This document shows positions 22,342 to 26,176 of a stretch of DNA of 32,000 nt, one piece after another (position 1 is the first letter of the stretch; every line of letters begins with the position of its first letter). The notes beneath the pieces are model-generated. The model was not told the origin of the DNA. It saw only the letters and a list, made by a program, of their open reading frames with translations, and ran no database searches. The position numbers and the translations under genes were made by a program. The stretch spans positions 360,001 through 392,000 of the forward strand of contig NC_017039.1 in NCBI RefSeq assembly GCF_000284455.1, given 5' to 3'. This DNA is from Synechocystis sp. PCC 6803 substr. PCC-P (GTDB lineage Bacteria; Cyanobacteriota; Cyanobacteriia; Cyanobacteriales; Microcystaceae).

Positions 22342-22395
22342 ATGGCAAGTTTTCTAGCTTTACTGCCCCGCTCCCTGACGACGTTTCCCTTATGA
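22342..22395 (+). repeat. Head block copy 1: 17-codon leader ORF MASFLALLPRSLTTFPL*, truncated by the hicBA cargo
   Basis: Codons 1-15 encode the same peptide as copies at 23300, 24277 and 24980, differing only by synonymous changes. The stop TGA overlaps the hicB ATG (TTATGA). Confidence 0.8.
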
Positions 22396-22646
22396 AAAAA
22401 GTAACCATGACAGTCACTCCCAAGCAAATTTATAACTATACTGTTCTTCTAGAAAAAGAGCTTGATGGCGGTTATCACGCCTTTTGCCCAATGCTCAAAG
22501 GATGCCATTCCCAAGGAGACACCTTTGAAGAAGCCATACAAAACATTACAGAGGCTATTGAACTATACATTGAAAGCTTGATAGCCGAACATCAGCCCGT
22601 TCCTAAGGAAGATTTAATTGTCAAACCATTGAGTATTTTGGTGTGA
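22392..22646 (+). CDS. hicB: HicB-family antitoxin
   Basis: 84-aa ORF with GGYHAFCPMLKGCHSQGDTFEEAIQNITEAIELYIESL, a typical HicB N-terminal domain. GTGA overlap with hicA. An alternative start is ATG 22407. Confidence 0.85.
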   Translation: MKKVTMTVTPKQIYNYTVLLEKELDGGYHAFCPMLKGCHSQGDTFEEAIQNITEAIELYIESLIAEHQPVPKEDLIVKPLSILV

Positions 22647-22873
22647 GCAATCTTCCAAGCGTCCAAGCCAAAGATTTTATTCGAGTAATCAAAAAGCTCG
22701 GATTTTTTCTGGAGCGCCAGAAAGGGAGCCATGCCATTTATAAAAATACCCAGGGTAATCGAGTTGTGGTTCCCATCCATCCCGGAAAAGATTTAAAGCA
22801 GGGGACACTGATGGGCATGATTAAAGATATTGGACTTGAAAAAGAAAAATTTTTTGACTTACTACAAAAATAG
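22643..22873 (+). CDS. hicA: HicA-family mRNA-interferase toxin
   Basis: 76-aa ORF with KDFIRVIKKLGFFLERQKGSHAIYKN.....VVVPIHPGKDLKQGTLMGMIKDIGL, a typical HicA. Confidence 0.85.
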   Translation: MSNLPSVQAKDFIRVIKKLGFFLERQKGSHAIYKNTQGNRVVVPIHPGKDLKQGTLMGMIKDIGLEKEKFFDLLQK

Positions 22874-22884
22874 TAATTTGTGTG

Positions 22885-22935
22885 ATCGCTCATTTGCTTA
22901 GCTTCCTCCAGGAGTACGGTGAATAAATAGGCGAT
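22885..22935 (+). repeat. Tail block copy 1 (...LLSFLQEYGE* plus ATAGGCGATC), orphaned downstream of hicA
   Basis: Aligns with the 3-prime ends of ORFs 23300-23794 and 24980-25390. The last 9 codons are identical in amino-acid sequence and differ only at synonymous sites. Confidence 0.75.
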
Positions 22936-23266
22936 CAACGTCAACGACGTGGCCCAGGCCCACGTTCTCGGATTAACTTACCTTTTGCAGGGGGGAGCTA
23001 CCAACATCTTTAACCTCGGTAATGGCAATGGCTTCTCTGTGCGGGAAATGATTGCAACAGCCCAGTTAGTCACCAATCGCCCCATTCCCGTGCTACAAGG
23101 CGATCGCCGTCCGGGAGACCCCCCGATTTTAGTGGGCAGCAGTGAAAAAGCTCGGCAAATCCTCGGTTGGCAACCCCAATATCCCCTGGCAAAAGATATT
23201 CTGACCCATGCCTGGGCTTGGCACCAACAACGCCATGGCGATAATTCCCCATGCACACAACCGTAG
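22936..23266 (+). pseudogene. 3-prime third of a second UDP-glucose 4-epimerase gene (galE stump)
   Basis: It reads (I)NVNDVAQAHVLGLTYLLQGGATNIFNLGNGNGFSVREMI...GDPPILVGSSEKARQILGWQPQY, collinear with residues ~225-330 of the intact GalE at 11487-12509. No N-terminal Rossmann part. The left junction abuts tail block 1. Confidence 0.8.
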
Positions 23267-23287
23267 CAATGGCGATCGCCAGTTAGC

Positions 23288-23299
23288 TAAACTGTAACC
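23288..23299 (+). promoter_or_regulatory. Candidate -10 box TAAACT placed 6 nt before the unit ATG (possible leaderless transcript)
   Basis: The same geometry recurs at 24265-24276 (TAAACT) and 24968-24979 (TAAAAT). No Shine-Dalgarno sequence precedes these ATGs. Motif-and-spacing argument only. Confidence 0.3.
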
Positions 23300-23794
23300 A
23301 TGGCAAGTTTTCTGGCTTTACTGCCCCGTTCATTGACCACTTTCCTTTATGCCGTTGCGGCCCTACTGAGGTTTTATGGCAACATCGACACCACCCCCAT
23401 CCCCCGAATCCCCCTCACCATCTTTGGATGGAGCTTCCTGGCGTTCACGTTGGGCACAGCGGCTCTCCTGGTTAATCTCGGCCTTGAGTGGAACACTGGA
23501 AATCGAAGCCGAAACCGAGAGATTGAAACAAGAGAACGCGAAACTCGACGAGATAATCTTGCAGACGAAGAAAGAAACCGAGCGTCTGAGGAAAGAGAAA
23601 AAGCCGATCGAGAAAGAGATCGAGCAGATCAAGAAAGAAACCGAGCAGATCAGGAAAGAAAACGAGCGGCTAGCCGTGCTCGAATCCAAAATCGAGGATT
23701 TGTTCTCCAAACACGGTATCAACTTGCCCCTAGCCCAGAAGCCAGAGCAACCCTAATCGATTTCCTTAGCTTTCTCCAGGAATACGGCGAATAA
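23300..23794 (+). CDS. Intact unit 2: small membrane protein with hydrophobic N-terminus, one clear TM helix and a charged heptad-repeat tail (unknown family)
   Basis: 164-aa ORF. TM segment IPLTIFGWSFLAFTLGTAALLVNLGL, then R/D/E/Q-rich 7-aa repeats, ending LIDFLSFLQEYGE. Paralog at 24980-25390. The N- and C-terminal codons differ from the paralog only synonymously. Confidence 0.6.
   Translation: MASFLALLPRSLTTFLYAVAALLRFYGNIDTTPIPRIPLTIFGWSFLAFTLGTAALLVNLGLEWNTGNRSRNREIETRERETRRDNLADEERNRASEEREKADRERDRADQERNRADQERKRAASRARIQNRGFVLQTRYQLAPSPEARATLIDFLSFLQEYGE
23376..23756 (+). other. Alternative +1-frame ORF inside unit 2 encoding a heptad coiled coil (candidate overprinted gene or frameshift product)
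   Basis: 126 codons: ...EIEAETERLKQENAKLDEIILQTKKETERLRKEKKPIEKEIEQIKKETEQIRKENERLAVLESKIEDLFSKHGINLPLAQKPEQP*. ATG and stop are conserved in the paralog (25056-25352). Several paralog differences are synonymous in this frame but not in the annotated frame. Confidence 0.35.
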
Positions 23795-23816
23795 ACGGCG
23801 AGCTTGATAATCTTGA

Positions 23817-24053
23817 ATGAAATTTACCCAATATTTTTTAGCTACCAGACAAAGACCAGATCGGTTAATTATTCACTTGGAGTGGATAGAATACACTATG
23901 AACAATCCTCTCAAGGAAGAAATTCAAACAGACGGTAGAATCAAATTATGGGCTTCCATCCCGGAAATGGAAGGTAGATATCTGCGTGTAGTTTTATTGT
24001 CAGATCGAGAAACTGTCCATAATGCATTTTTTGACCGCTCCTTCAAACCATGA
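23817..24053 (+). CDS. Small TA-like protein (DUF4258-like; family name from memory, moderate certainty)
   Basis: 78-aa ORF with RPDRLIIHLEWIEYTMNNP....DGRIKLWASIPEMEGRYLRVVLLSDRETVHNAFFDRSF. ATGA overlap with the downstream DUF2283-like ORF. Confidence 0.55.
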   Translation: MKFTQYFLATRQRPDRLIIHLEWIEYTMNNPLKEEIQTDGRIKLWASIPEMEGRYLRVVLLSDRETVHNAFFDRSFKP

Positions 24054-24247
24054 AGATTAAGTACTTTACTGATACAGATACCCTTTATATTGAATTTCAG
24101 TCTGCCAATATTGTCGAAACCAGGGATTTGGACGATAACACTTTAATTGACATTGACATGCACGGAAATGTCTGTGCCATAACCATTGAACACGCTCAAC
24201 AAAGAACCAATATTCCTAACATCTCGTTCGAGCAGATTGTGGCATAG
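24050..24247 (+). CDS. DUF2283-like small protein (putative partner of the upstream ORF)
   Basis: 65-aa ORF with MKIKYFTDTDTLYIEFQSANIVETRDLDDNTLIDIDMHGNVCAITIEHA, the typical DUF2283 pattern. Confidence 0.6.
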   Translation: MKIKYFTDTDTLYIEFQSANIVETRDLDDNTLIDIDMHGNVCAITIEHAQQRTNIPNISFEQIVA

Positions 24248-24276
24248 GGCGATCGCCGGTTAGCTAAACTAAGACT

Positions 24277-24336
24277 ATGGCAAGTTTTCTGGCCCTACTG
24301 CCCCGGTCCTTGACCACTTTCCTTTATAGCGAATAA
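24277..24336 (+). repeat. Collapsed unit 3: head block fused directly to the last 9 nt of the tail block (19-codon ORF MASFLALLPRSLTTFLYSE*)
   Basis: 17 head codons, then AGCGAATAA (compare GGCGAATAA at 23786-23794). Preceded by GCGATCGCC-GGTTAGCTAAACT as in unit 2. The Uma2 ATG follows 6 nt after the stop. Confidence 0.75.
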
Positions 24337-24342
24337 TTCCCC

Positions 24343-24975
24343 ATGACCCTCACCGTTGCCATTCCCCGCATTGAGATCGCCCCTGGTAGTCATTTAACTA
24401 TCCCCAATGTATCCTGGGTAGACTTTATCTCTTTGCTAAAAGAACTCGGAGAAAAACGTCATTCCCGACTCGCTTACTATCAAGGCCGACTGGAAATCAT
24501 GGCTCCCCTGGCCCTACATGAAAAACCAAATCGTCTGATTACCGATATCGTCAAAGCTATTTTGGAATGCCAAGAGCGCGACTGGGAAGACTTTGGCTCC
24601 ACCACCCTTAAACAGCCTCCCTTCGCTGGCATAGAACCAGATAGCTGTTTTTACATCCAAAATGCATCCCAGATGCGGGAATACAAAAACCTTGATCTGA
24701 ATCAATCTCCCCCCCCAGATTTAGCAATTGAATGCAATTTAAGCTCCAAAACCGTCATCGATGCGTACCAAGCCATTGGCGTTCCTGAAGTGTGGATTTA
24801 TAGCAACAATCAACTACAAATTTACCTTTATTCAGAACAAGGTTATTTAGAAAGCAACCAAAGTCAAGTTTTTCCAGATTTGGCCGTAATGTCAATGATT
24901 CCCCAACTAATTCAAAAAGCTTACCAAGTTGGCACAAGGCAAATGTTGGGTGAGTTGAAGGCACAGCTAAAATGA
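24343..24975 (+). CDS. Uma2-family (DUF820, PD-(D/E)xK-fold) putative endonuclease
   Basis: 210-aa ORF with YYQGRLEIMAPLALHEKPNRLITDIV, EPDSCFYI, PDLAIECNLSS and YQAIGVPEVWIY. Confidence 0.8.
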   Translation: MTLTVAIPRIEIAPGSHLTIPNVSWVDFISLLKELGEKRHSRLAYYQGRLEIMAPLALHEKPNRLITDIVKAILECQERDWEDFGSTTLKQPPFAGIEPDSCFYIQNASQMREYKNLDLNQSPPPDLAIECNLSSKTVIDAYQAIGVPEVWIYSNNQLQIYLYSEQGYLESNQSQVFPDLAVMSMIPQLIQKAYQVGTRQMLGELKAQLK

Positions 24976-24979
24976 ACCT

Positions 24980-25390
24980 ATGGCAAGTTTTCTAGCCTTA
25001 CTGCCCCGCTCCCTGACCACTTTCCTTTATGCTGTGGCGGCCCTACTGAGATTTTATGGCAACATCGACACCACCCCCTTCCAACTCATCCCCCTCACCA
25101 TCCTCGACTGGAGTTTCCTGGCGTTCACGTTGGGCACAGCGGCTCTCCTGGTTAATCTCGGCCTTGAGTGGAACTCTGGAAATCGAAGCCGAAACCGAGC
25201 AGATCAGGAAAGAGACAGAACAGATCAAGAAAGAGACCGAGCAGATCAGGAAAGACAACGAGCGGCTCGCCGTGCTCGAATCCAAAATCGATTCTTCCTT
25301 CGACCAACACGGTATCAACTTACCCCTAGCCCAGACACCAGAGCAGCCCTAATCGATTTCCTCAGTTTCCTCCAGGAATACGGGGAATAA
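24980..25390 (+). CDS. Intact unit 4: paralog of 23300-23794 (membrane protein with a shorter heptad-repeat tail)
   Basis: 136-aa ORF with the same N-terminus, TM helix and LIDFLSFLQEYGE end. Exactly 84 nt (four 21-nt repeats) shorter than unit 2. Confidence 0.6.
   Translation: MASFLALLPRSLTTFLYAVAALLRFYGNIDTTPFQLIPLTILDWSFLAFTLGTAALLVNLGLEWNSGNRSRNRADQERDRTDQERDRADQERQRAARRARIQNRFFLRPTRYQLTPSPDTRAALIDFLSFLQEYGE
25056..25352 (+). other. Alternative +1-frame ORF inside unit 4 (coiled-coil reading), paralog of 23376-23756
   Basis: 98 codons: ...EIEAETEQIRKETEQIKKETEQIRKDNERLAVLESKIDSSFDQHGINLPLAQTPEQP*. Three near-perfect 21-nt repeats at about 25200-25262. Confidence 0.35.
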
Positions 25391-25466
25391 ATAGGCGATC
25401 GCCCAACCCTTTCCCAACATACTCATTGTTAAGATTGACTAGTCCCCCGTTGCCTGTGAAATAACC

Positions 25467-26012
25467 ATGGTTACCCTGCTGAAATGGACAGTTCCAGACT
25501 ATCACCACCTCATTGAACAGGGGCTATTGGACGGTAAGAAAGTGGAACTTTTAGACGGAGACCTAGTGACCATGGCTCCCGAAGGACCACTCCATAGCTA
25601 CACCACCACCACCGTTGCCGACTATCTGCGCCAAAACCTGCACGGATTAGCTCTAGTGAGGGAAGCCCATCCCATTACCCTGAGTCAATCTGAACCGGAA
25701 CCTGACATTGCCATTGTTCTAGCTCCCCAGGAGCGCTACAAAGAAAGGCATCCTCAGGCCGACGATATTTTTTGGTTAATTGAAATAGCTAACAGTACCC
25801 AAGCCTACGACCTCAACGACAAAAAACAAATCTACGCTCAAGAAGGCATCCCCGAATATTGGGTGGCAGACCTAAGCAAACGCCAATTATTTATTTTTCG
25901 AGCACCAGACAAAGAAGATTATCGCCTGCAACAAACCCACTCCGAAGGTATCATCCGTAGCCAAGCCTTTCCCGAAATAAAAATATCAGTACAAGAAATG
26001 TTCCATTGGTAG
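25467..26012 (+). CDS. Uma2-family (DUF820) putative endonuclease
   Basis: 181-aa ORF with VELLDGDLVTMAPEGPLHSYTTTTV, EPEPDIAIV, WLIEIANST and YAQEGIPEYWVADL. Confidence 0.85.
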   Translation: MVTLLKWTVPDYHHLIEQGLLDGKKVELLDGDLVTMAPEGPLHSYTTTTVADYLRQNLHGLALVREAHPITLSQSEPEPDIAIVLAPQERYKERHPQADDIFWLIEIANSTQAYDLNDKKQIYAQEGIPEYWVADLSKRQLFIFRAPDKEDYRLQQTHSEGIIRSQAFPEIKISVQEMFHW

Positions 26013-26027
26013 CTCTCCGACCATTGG

Positions 26028-26058
26028 CCAAACTGAAACCATGGCAAGTTTTCTGGCC
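26028..26058 (+). repeat. Head block copy 5 (fragment): CCAAACTGAAACC-ATGGCAAGTTTTCTGGCC, marking the right edge of the array
   Basis: Matches the first ~18 nt of the unit ORF plus 13 nt upstream. Homology then ends (short ORF MASFLAVFLLLCFW*). Confidence 0.65.
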
Positions 26059-26176
26059 GTATTCTTGCTCCTTTGTTTTTGGTAACCAACTGAGCGACCG
26101 CAGCATTCTCCCAAATTCTAAATAAATTCCGTTGTTTTTGCTGTCGAACCAGTTAATTTTGGCGTAAATTATTACC

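What the first reader, a model, noticed from the sequence alone, without database searches (positions are those of the whole stretch)
23376..23756. Substitution phase switches from frame 0 to the +1 frame and back inside the intact units: overprinted coiled-coil gene or programmed frameshifting?
Units 2 (23300-23794) and 4 (24980-25390) were compared. Upstream of the +1-frame ATG (23376) all 8 differences are synonymous in the annotated frame: 23314, 23317, 23329, 23332, 23333, 23353, 23356 and 23371. Downstream of the +1-frame stop (23754-23756) all 4 differences are again synonymous in the annotated frame: 23767, 23770, 23773 and 23788. Between those points the single-nucleotide differences at 23399, 23423, 23495, 23639, 23672, 23726 and 23750 are synonymous in the +1 frame but non-synonymous in the annotated frame; only 23434 shows the opposite pattern. 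In the +1 frame the 21-nt repeats read as heptads whose second residue is L,L,T,L,I,I,I,L,I. The annotated frame has I,T,D,S,D,D,D,A,N at the same nucleotides. The +1 ORF keeps its ATG and stop in both paralogs and ends in a conserved ERLAVLESKI....HGINLPLAQ.PEQP. The annotated frame, however, encodes a convincing TM helix in a 59-nt block that is identical in both copies. Three explanations fit: two overlapping genes, a +1 shift followed by a -1 shift, or a relaxed linker that mimics the signal by chance.
Basis: partly seen in the sequence, partly recalled or inferred. Interest (0 to 1): 0.8.

Follow-up and report, generated by a model that had tools for sequence, protein, structure and literature searches.

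The report
Nested out-of-frame gene inside slr1079
The phase switch is real and marks a second, 126-residue protein gene nested in the +1 frame of Synechocystis slr1079 (and of its paralog slr1082). A 2025/26 preprint has already shown by ribosome profiling, mass spectrometry and pull-downs that both frames are translated, so this is a known case of dual coding.

Summary
The window is Synechocystis sp. PCC 6803 chromosome NC_000911.1, 360001-392000. Unit 2 is slr1079 and unit 4 is slr1082.

Outside the +1 ORF, 12 of 12 paralog differences are synonymous in frame 0. Inside it, only 5 of 32 are (Fisher p = 3e-7).

I extended the test to 35 homologs from 46 cyanobacterial loci:
- The +1 ORF ("S") is intact in about 31 of them.
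- It starts at L codon 26 (TAT-G) and stops exactly 38 nt before the L stop in 24 of them.
- Frame-0 third-position diversity falls from 0.59 outside the overlap to 0.23 inside (p = 1e-11).
- Frame 0 also stays open and conserved, so both frames are under selection.

Double frameshifting and a chance or relaxed linker are rejected.

The case is already published. bioRxiv 10.64898/2025.12.20.695498 (Hadjeras et al.) reports initiation and termination Ribo-seq peaks for both frames, peptides of Slr1079L, Slr1079S and Slr1082S, reciprocal co-IP of L and S, and toxicity of the paralog's L alone. Its primers define Slr1079S as window 23376-23756.

New here are the family-wide evolutionary signature, the conserved GAGG before the S start, and the fact that the same 21-nt repeats encode both long helices.

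The parts
23300..23794 (+). slr1079, the host gene (Slr1079L, 164 aa): two N-terminal hydrophobic helices, a long charged helix and a short C-terminal helix.
   Evidence: 100% identical to database protein P0001 = slr1079. 375 homologs at E<=1e-3. AF2 model gives helices H3-27, H39-142 and H146-162, mean pLDDT 81.6. The mRNA is leaderless (PMC4195498).
23376..23756 (+). Slr1079S, the nested +1-frame gene (126 aa): Pro/Ser-rich N-terminus, the conserved WLISALSGTLEIE motif, a heptad-repeat helix and a LESKI..LFSK.GI tail.
   Evidence: ORF listed. The preprint's primers match these ends exactly. The ORF is conserved in about 31 of 35 homologs. 182 database proteins match it. AF2: residues 1-22 disordered, H23-112.
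24980..25390 (+). slr1082, the paralogous host gene (Slr1082L, 136 aa).
   Evidence: Genome coordinates NC_000911.1:384980-385390 appear in the preprint's supplement.
25056..25352 (+). Slr1082S, the nested +1-frame gene (98 aa).
   Evidence: The preprint reports peptides for Slr1082S.
23367..23378 (+). Initiation region of S: a +1-frame TGA stop (23367-23369), an SD-like GAGG (23368-23371), a 4-nt spacer, then the ATG (23376-23378), which is made from the Tyr26 codon TAT plus the G of codon 27.
   Evidence: TGAGGTTYTATG or a close variant is present in most homologs. Arg24 is AGG in 14/27 and AGA in 9/27, whereas AGG is 2% of Arg codons elsewhere. Tyr26 is TAT in 23/27.
23570..23669 (+). 21-nt tandem repeats (4.8 copies) that encode heptads in both frames: RxRADQE in L and ExEQIxK in S.
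   Evidence: Homolog lengths differ by multiples of 7 aa in both L and S.
25194..25263 (+). 21-nt tandem repeats (3.3 copies) in slr1082.
23754..23794 (+). S stop (TAA, 23754-23756) followed by the L-only tail (..IDFLSFLQEYGE*), where the normal frame-0 wobble signature returns.
   Evidence: The S stop lies 38 nt before the L stop in 24 of the 35 homologs. Third-position diversity in L codons 153-164 is 0.55.
23288..23293 (+). -10-like TAAACT ending 7 nt before the A of the L start codon. This fits a transcription start at the ATG (leaderless L). slr1082 has TAAAAT at 24968-24973.
   Evidence: Read directly from the sequence. Leaderless status comes from PMC4195498 and from the preprint's primer names and its description of slr0489. 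The promoter assignment itself is inferred.

Best explanation
slr1079 (23300-23794) and slr1082 (24980-25390) are dual-coding genes. One mRNA carries two overlapping reading frames, each translated from its own start.

- Frame 0 gives L, a small membrane-anchored protein: two N-terminal hydrophobic helices, then a roughly 100-residue helix, then a short C-terminal helix.
- The +1 frame gives S, initiated at an internal ATG formed by Tyr26 (TAT) plus the next G. S has a Pro/Ser-rich N-terminus followed by one roughly 90-residue heptad-repeat helix.

Shown (here or in the preprint): both frames are open and under purifying selection across cyanobacteria. Each has its own initiation and termination signals. 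Peptides of both exist. L and S pull each other down.

Inferred: L is translated from a leaderless mRNA. S uses a conserved GAGG-N4-ATG site and is made in excess. The two long helices are encoded by the same nucleotides, including the same 21-nt repeats, so they change length in lock-step and pair with each other. By analogy with the paralog slr0489, L alone impairs growth and S neutralises it, as in a toxin-antitoxin pair.
For: - Paralog substitution classes: 12/12 frame-0-synonymous outside the overlap, 5/32 inside.
- Of 35 homologs from 46 loci, S is intact in about 31 and L in 30. The S ATG sits at L codon 26. The S stop is 38 nt before the L stop in 24 of them.
- Frame-0 third-position diversity is 0.59 before the S ATG and 0.55 after the S stop, but 0.17-0.33 inside. 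Position 1 (the S wobble position) is 0.24-0.37 inside. Mann-Whitney p = 1.4e-11.
- Mean pairwise amino-acid identity in the overlap segments: S 0.58/0.78/0.72 against L 0.50/0.73/0.67.
- Resampling synonymous codons of L leaves the +1 frame open in only 2-19% of trials per gene.
- AGG at Arg24 and TAT at Tyr26 are enriched.
- AF2 models of both products are long helices, pLDDT about 82.
- Preprint 10.64898/2025.12.20.695498: Ribo-seq support for the nested frames of slr1079 and slr1082, with TIS and TTS peaks for both frames described in the text for the paralog slr0489. Peptides of Slr1079L, Slr1079S and Slr1082S. Co-IP with L as bait enriches S (log2 6.7) and with S as bait enriches L (log2 8.8). 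Slr0489L alone retards growth and this is rescued by S.
- slr1079 mRNA is leaderless (PMC4195498).
Against: - Within the two paralogs alone, the excess of +1-synonymous over frame-0-synonymous changes is not significant (8 against 5).
- Family-wide, position 1 does not significantly exceed position 3 inside the overlap (Wilcoxon p = 0.08).
- Openness of the +1 frame in the E/K/R/D-rich repeat is partly a compositional by-product.
- Some homologs lose one partner. L is interrupted while S is intact in L003 and L016_3897. S is interrupted while L is intact in L034 and L016_2515.
- The toxicity and rescue experiment was done for slr0489, not for slr1079.
- No peptides were found for Slr1082L.
- The pairing geometry, the membrane topology and the S>L stoichiometry for slr1079 are inferred, not shown.
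Confidence: 0.93

Rival explanations
1. Programmed ribosomal frameshifting. One polypeptide starts in frame 0, shifts +1 near 23376, reads the coiled-coil frame, and shifts -1 near 23756 to finish in frame 0.
For: The frame-0 wobble signature is seen only in the N-terminal 25 codons and the last 12 codons, which is what a chimeric product would also give.
Against: - Frame 0 stays open through the whole overlap in 30 of 35 homologs, and its amino-acid sequence is conserved there (RARIQNR, EWNAGNRS). That would not be maintained if frame 0 were unread.
- A +1-frame stop (TGA) sits two codons before a conserved ATG with an SD-like GAGG.
- There is no frame-0 stop or known slippery motif at either junction.
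- The preprint reports the slr1079 and slr1082 +1 ORFs as Ribo-seq-supported intragenic out-of-frame translons, with TIS peaks at both starts and TTS peaks at both stops described for the paralog slr0489. Its only reported case of frameshifting is prfB. It also expressed S alone from its own ATG.
Confidence: 0.02
2. Chance or compositional artefact. The middle of L is a relaxed, low-complexity linker. The +1 frame is open only because E/K/R/D codons rarely create +1 stops, and the paralog pattern is noise.
For: The repeat region is low-complexity. Synonymous resampling leaves +1 open in up to 19% of trials for single genes. The 8:5 count in the paralogs is not significant.
Against: - The S ORF, with the same ATG position, the same stop position and a conserved protein (16 invariant columns in 56 sequences, including W32 L33 A36-T40 and R98 L99 S104 K105), persists down to 34-40% L identity.
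- The drop in third-position diversity also covers the non-repetitive TM2 and C-terminal segments.
- Peptides of S were detected.
Confidence: 0.02
3. Only S matters in the overlap. L is functionally just its N-terminal membrane part, and its frame-0 continuation is tolerated read-through without selected function.
For: In two homologs (L003, L016_3897) L is cut by a stop in the repeat while S is intact. S is slightly better conserved than L in three of four overlap segments.
Against: - The 12-codon L tail after the S stop shows a clean frame-0 wobble signature, and DFLSFLQEYGE is conserved. So ribosomes in frame 0 reach the end and that end is selected.
- L is open in 30 of 35 homologs.
- C-terminally FLAG-tagged full-length Slr1079L was expressed and used as co-IP bait, and peptides of Slr1079L were detected.
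Confidence: 0.03

Closest known systems
[quoted passage not shown]
   Same: These are the same loci. Slr1079S in the preprint runs from ATGGCAACATCGACACC to CCCTAA, which is window 23376-23756. slr1082 is window 24980-25390.
   Different: Nothing differs in the object itself. The preprint describes a family of three genes plus one homolog in PCC 7003 and gives no codon-phase or evolutionary analysis. Here the nested pair is traced through 35 homologs in Synechocystis, Picosynechococcus-like, Leptolyngbya, Snowella, Petrachloros, Nodosilinea and other MAGs.
Embedded two-component spanins of phage lambda (Rz with Rz1 nested in the +1 frame)
   Same: A gene for a small Pro-rich protein lies wholly inside the +1 frame of a gene for a membrane-anchored, helix-rich protein, and the two products bind each other (comparison made by the preprint).
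   Different: - The locus is not in a phage or lysis cassette, and there are no relatives in viral, phage or plasmid collections.
- S has no signal peptide, lipobox or Cys (direct reading).
- There are no PHROG spanin hits.
- Overexpression does not lyse cells.
- The overlap covers about 77% of the host gene.
Toxin-antitoxin modules (protein-protein neutralisation, type II-like)
   Same: The product of one ORF slows growth and the co-encoded partner binds and neutralises it (slr0489 data). The genes sit among HicAB, MNT/HepT, DUF2283, Uma2 and DUF29 genes.
   Different: The two ORFs overlap out of frame almost completely instead of lying in tandem. Neither protein matches any Pfam, NCBIfam or PADLOC toxin-antitoxin (TA) family. 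Toxicity has not been shown for slr1079 itself.
Programmed +1 frameshifting as in prfB
   Same: Coding information switches to the +1 frame partway through a gene.
   Different: There is no in-frame stop or CUU-UGA-type shift site. The zero frame continues to a conserved C-terminus. S has its own conserved start codon and an initiation peak.

Membership tests
Slr0489/Slr1079/Slr1082 L/S nested-gene family (bioRxiv 10.64898/2025.12.20.695498) | The same loci and the same ORF boundaries as published. | tested here: met
   P0001 = slr1079 at 100% identity. The published primers and genome coordinates map to 23376-23756 and 24980-25390.
Slr0489/Slr1079/Slr1082 L/S nested-gene family (bioRxiv 10.64898/2025.12.20.695498) | S carries the Pro-rich motif at residues 6-8, and L carries N-terminal hydrophobic segments. 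| tested here: met
   S begins MATSTPPPSP. The L model has helices H3-27 and H39 onwards.
Slr0489/Slr1079/Slr1082 L/S nested-gene family (bioRxiv 10.64898/2025.12.20.695498) | Both frames are translated and the products interact. | not testable with these tools
   Taken from the preprint: Ribo-seq with TIS/TTS profiling, peptides, and reciprocal co-IP. My evidence is indirect, namely purifying selection on both frames.
Embedded two-component spanin (Rz/Rz1) | Located in a phage or prophage lysis cassette. | tested here: not met
   Neighbours are glycosyltransferases, HicAB, Uma2 and DUF2283 genes. No relatives in IMG/VR, GenBank phages or plasmids.
Embedded two-component spanin (Rz/Rz1) | The nested product is an outer-membrane lipoprotein (signal peptide plus lipobox Cys). 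| tested here: not met
   Slr1079S and Slr1082S contain no Cys and no N-terminal hydrophobic signal (sequences). No spanin PHROG hits.
Embedded two-component spanin (Rz/Rz1) | The nested gene is in the +1 frame of a gene for a membrane-anchored helical protein. | tested here: met
Type II-like toxin-antitoxin module | The toxin inhibits growth and the partner binds and neutralises it. | not testable with these tools
   Shown for the paralog slr0489. Binding is shown for slr1079, but toxicity is not.
Type II-like toxin-antitoxin module | Homology to a described toxin, antitoxin or defence family. | tested here: not met
   Only sub-threshold coiled-coil or low-complexity hits in Pfam, NCBIfam, PADLOC and PHROGs.
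Programmed ribosomal frameshift site | A shift site with a stimulator, the zero frame ending soon after it, and no independent start for the shifted frame. | tested here: not met
   Frame 0 is open to its conserved C-terminus in 30 of 35 homologs. A conserved ATG with GAGG follows a +1-frame TGA. The preprint reports only prfB as a frameshift.

The most novel reading that the evidence does not exclude
The nested L/S pair may not be a three-gene curiosity of Synechocystis 6803. It may be an old dual-coding module kept by selection across many cyanobacterial genera, with hundreds of members. The same 21-nt repeats encode the long helix of both partners, so gain or loss of a repeat changes both helices by the same number of heptads. 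That would keep the membrane-anchored, toxin-like L matched to its neutralising partner S, and it would be a reason for the overlap itself. A leaderless L start and an SD-led S start would set S above L. The module would spread through TA and accessory islands inside polysaccharide gene clusters.
Probability: 0.45. Interest if true: 0.6.

Novelty: already known. Interest (0 to 1): 0.4.

Why it matters
Long, conserved, out-of-frame gene overlaps with two functional products are rare in cellular genomes, and gene callers routinely miss them. In the databases some pipelines call L and others call S. This case shows that a pure sequence signal, loss of third-position wobble bounded by an internal ATG and stop, can find such genes. 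The same signal could be scanned genome-wide. For this locus the biology has already been reported. The added value here is evolutionary evidence that both frames are under selection across cyanobacteria, and the hypothesis that helix lengths are forced to co-vary.

Tried and rejected
- Antisense ORFs 23363-23722 and 25043-25318 as a possible third coding layer: their openness is not conserved in homologs (longest open stretch 50-143 codons, broken in many), so they are a compositional by-product.
- Family assignment of L and S: Pfam, NCBIfam, PADLOC and PHROGs give only sub-threshold coiled-coil or low-complexity hits. The 'DUF874' label on some database homologs is of that kind.
- Phage or plasmid origin: no hits in IMG/VR, GenBank phages or PLSDB.
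- Promoter and terminator consensus scan of 22800-25600: no more sites than in shuffled sequence, so uninformative.
- Openness of the +1 frame as a stand-alone test: weak for single genes (2-19% by chance). It is convincing only in combination with the conserved boundaries and the diversity profile.
- Fold search with the AF2 models: not run, because single long helices match non-specifically.

Full report
**Identity of the locus.** The frame-0 ORF at 23300-23794 is 100% identical to slr1079 of Synechocystis sp. PCC 6803. The supplement of a preprint gives slr1082 as NC_000911.1:384980-385390. The window is therefore NC_000911.1:360001-392000, 'unit 2' is slr1079, and 'unit 4' (24980-25390) is slr1082.

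**Check of the observation.**
- I aligned 23280-23810 with 24960-25406 and classified every difference in all three frames.
- Inside the +1 ORF there are 32 differing positions. Eight are synonymous only in +1: 23399, 23423, 23495, 23624, 23639, 23672, 23726 and 23750.
- Five are synonymous only in frame 0: 23434, 23605, 23620, 23621 and 23701. The rest change both proteins.
- The loss of frame-0 synonymy is significant: 12/12 outside against 5/32 inside, Fisher p = 2.9e-7.
- The heptad reading (L,L,T,L,I,I,I,L,I against I,T,D,S,D,D,D,A,N) is exact.
- The 21-nt repeats are real: 4.8 copies at 23570-23669 and 3.3 copies at 25194-25263.
- The invariant block over the second hydrophobic helix is 23435-23494.

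- The frame-0 protein has 375 database relatives at E<=1e-3, all full-length, with lengths stepping by 7 aa. An alignment of 58 shows conservation through the whole protein, including the part overlapped by the +1 ORF.
- I fetched DNA for relatives from genomes (26 loci) and metagenomes (20 loci) and extracted 35 near-full-length copies.
- The +1 ORF, called S below, is intact in about 31 of 35, down to 34-40% identity of the host protein, called L below.
- Its ATG sits at L codon 26 (TAT + G) in 23 of 27 analysed copies. In the three most divergent copies (L025, L026, L045) it is displaced by two codons, and in L046 by one.
- Its stop lies exactly 38 nt before the L stop in 24 of the 35.
- The S protein is well conserved (WLISALSGTLEIE, ERLA.LESKI..LFSK.GI). 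In a separate alignment of 56 database S proteins, 16 columns are invariant.
- L is open in 30 of 35.
- A few copies have lost one partner. L is interrupted in L003 and L016_3897. S is interrupted in L034 and in the distant paralog L016_2515. Both are interrupted in L020 and L007.

**Codon-phase analysis.**
- On a codon alignment of 23 homologs, mean pairwise diversity at frame-0 positions 1/2/3 is 0.28/0.09/0.59 in codons 1-25 and 0.23/0.19/0.55 in codons 153-164. That is the ordinary signature of single coding.
- In the four alignable overlap segments, position 3 falls to 0.17-0.33, and position 1 (the S wobble position) is 0.24-0.37.
- Outside against inside, position 3 is 0.594 against 0.232 (Mann-Whitney p = 1.4e-11). 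Positions 1 and 2 hardly change. The per-codon profile changes at codon 26 and at codon 152/153.
- Inside the overlap, position 1 exceeds position 3 only weakly (Wilcoxon p = 0.08).
- S is slightly more conserved than L in three of four segments (0.58/0.78/0.72 against 0.50/0.73/0.67). L is the more conserved in the last segment.
- The family-wide picture is therefore dual constraint rather than a clean transfer of constraint to +1.
- Resampling synonymous codons of L leaves the +1 frame open in only 2-19% of trials per gene. Maintenance across many lineages, with fixed boundaries, is not chance.

**How S is started.**
- The sequence before the S ATG is conserved as TGAGGTTYTATG. It holds a +1-frame TGA stop, an SD-like GAGG, a 4-nt spacer and the ATG.
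- The GAGG arises because Arg24 of L uses AGG in 14 of 27 copies and AGA in 9 of 27, whereas AGG is only 12 of 589 Arg codons elsewhere in these genes.
- Tyr26 is TAT in 23 of 27, whereas Tyr162 is mixed (17 TAT, 10 TAC).
- slr1079 mRNA is reported to be leaderless (PMC4195498). A -10-like TAAACT ends 7 nt before the L ATG, and similar hexamers precede all five copies of the unit's 5' end.
- The inference is that L starts by leaderless initiation and S by conventional internal initiation. This could explain the higher ribosome density that the preprint reports over the internal segment of the paralog.

**Published experiments.** Hadjeras et al. (bioRxiv 10.64898/2025.12.20.695498, version of 2026-07-30) report the following.
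- For slr0489, TIS-Ribo-seq and TTS-Ribo-seq peaks are shown for both frames. For slr1079 and slr1082 the text says Ribo-seq data support expression of the nested frames (Fig. S21).
- Peptides were found for Slr1079L, Slr1079S and Slr1082S.
- Co-IP is reciprocal: L as bait enriches S (log2 6.7) and S as bait enriches L (log2 8.8).
- For slr0489, growth slows when L is expressed without S (ATG-to-ACG, silent in L), and S rescues it.
- Their cloning primers for 'NesSlr1079' match window 23376 and 23756 exactly.
- The paper contains no synonymous-site or evolutionary analysis of the overlap, and it lists only prfB as a frameshift.

**Structure and mechanism.**
- AF2 with the family alignments predicts L as H3-27, H39-142 and H146-162 (pLDDT 81.6).
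- It predicts S as a disordered Pro/Ser-rich segment (residues 1-22) followed by a single helix H23-112 (pLDDT 81.9).
- L residue n and S residue n-25 share nucleotides, so the two long helices are encoded by the same DNA, including the 21-nt repeats. Any repeat gain or loss lengthens or shortens both by the same number of heptads.
- The two proteins bind each other (preprint). The most economical model is a membrane-anchored L helix paired along its length with the S helix, with the overlap enforcing matched lengths. This pairing geometry is inference.
- No curated family covers either protein.
- Compared with lambda Rz/Rz1, the resemblance is architectural only. There is no phage context, no lipobox or Cys in S, and no lysis.

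**Rivals.**
- Double frameshifting is contradicted by the open, conserved frame 0 across the overlap, by the conserved ATG preceded by a +1 stop, and by the published data: both frames translated, S expressed on its own from its ATG, and prfB the only frameshift reported.
- A relaxed linker or chance is contradicted by the homolog analysis and by the S peptides.
- 'Only S matters in the overlap' is contradicted by the frame-0 wobble signature and the conservation of the L tail after the S stop.

**Verdict.** The finding is already known from a recent preprint that covers exactly these ORFs.
- the family-wide evolutionary signature;
- the conserved S initiation site;
- the point that helix lengths must co-vary;
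- the recurrent association with toxin-antitoxin and accessory genes.

Noticed in passing
window 22342-22395, 22892-22936, 24277-24336, 26041-26061: Besides the two intact units there are truncated remnants of the same gene. Three are 5' ends that keep the -10-like box and the ATG. One is a 3' end. The 24277-24336 copy is a 19-codon fusion of the 5' and 3' ends (MASFLALLPRSLTTFLYSE*). Each 5' remnant lies just upstream of another gene (hicB, a Uma2 gene, an acetyltransferase), so the leaderless promoter may now drive those genes.
   Followed up: partly
window 22392-22873, 23817-24247, 24343-24975, 25467-26012: The spaces between the units hold a HicB/HicA pair, a small ORF plus a DUF2283 protein, and two Uma2-family putative endonucleases. 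This amounts to a toxin-antitoxin/accessory islet inside a glycosyltransferase cluster.
   Followed up: partly
window 22949-23266: This 105-aa ORF looks like only the C-terminal end of an NAD-dependent sugar epimerase/dehydratase (weak GDP_Man_Dehyd hit to profile positions 244-326 of 332). It is probably a gene remnant next to the unit-1 3' fragment.
   Followed up: no
L015:1545-4676: In a cyanobacterial MAG the L/S gene occurs three times, alternating with DUF29 genes (DUF29 - L/S - DUF29 - L/S - DUF29 - L/S - DUF29). This looks like a tandemly amplified two-gene unit. In the middle copy the codon at the position of L's usual ATG is a stop (TGA; a shorter ORF begins at a GTG four codons downstream), while S is intact.
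   Followed up: partly
L011:2994-7062 (Synechocystis salina LEGE 00031): One L/S copy is split after L residue 77 by an IS4/5-family transposase gene. Further L fragments lie among DUF29, Uma2 and MNT/HepT toxin-antitoxin genes, the same company as in the window.
   Followed up: partly
L006:4001-8441: Three L/S copies sit inside a glycosyltransferase cluster that ends with a homolog of the hexapeptide acetyltransferase at window 26177. This suggests a syntenic insertion site in a polysaccharide locus. The record is labelled Sphingobacterium thalpophilum MAG but the contig is clearly cyanobacterial, so binning or labelling is probably wrong.
   Followed up: no
database proteins P0121, P0140, P0141: Some GenBank annotations of Synechocystis 6803 substrains call shortened versions of the S-frame ORF (110, 112 and 77 aa) as hypothetical proteins. 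JGI pipelines give S homologs spurious names (MreC, SbcC, YlxW, ZapB) that reflect coiled-coil bias only.
   Followed up: no
window 23363-23722 and 25043-25318, minus strand: Long antisense ORFs (119 and 91 aa) run opposite both units. Their openness is not conserved in homologs, so they are a by-product of codon composition.
   Followed up: yes
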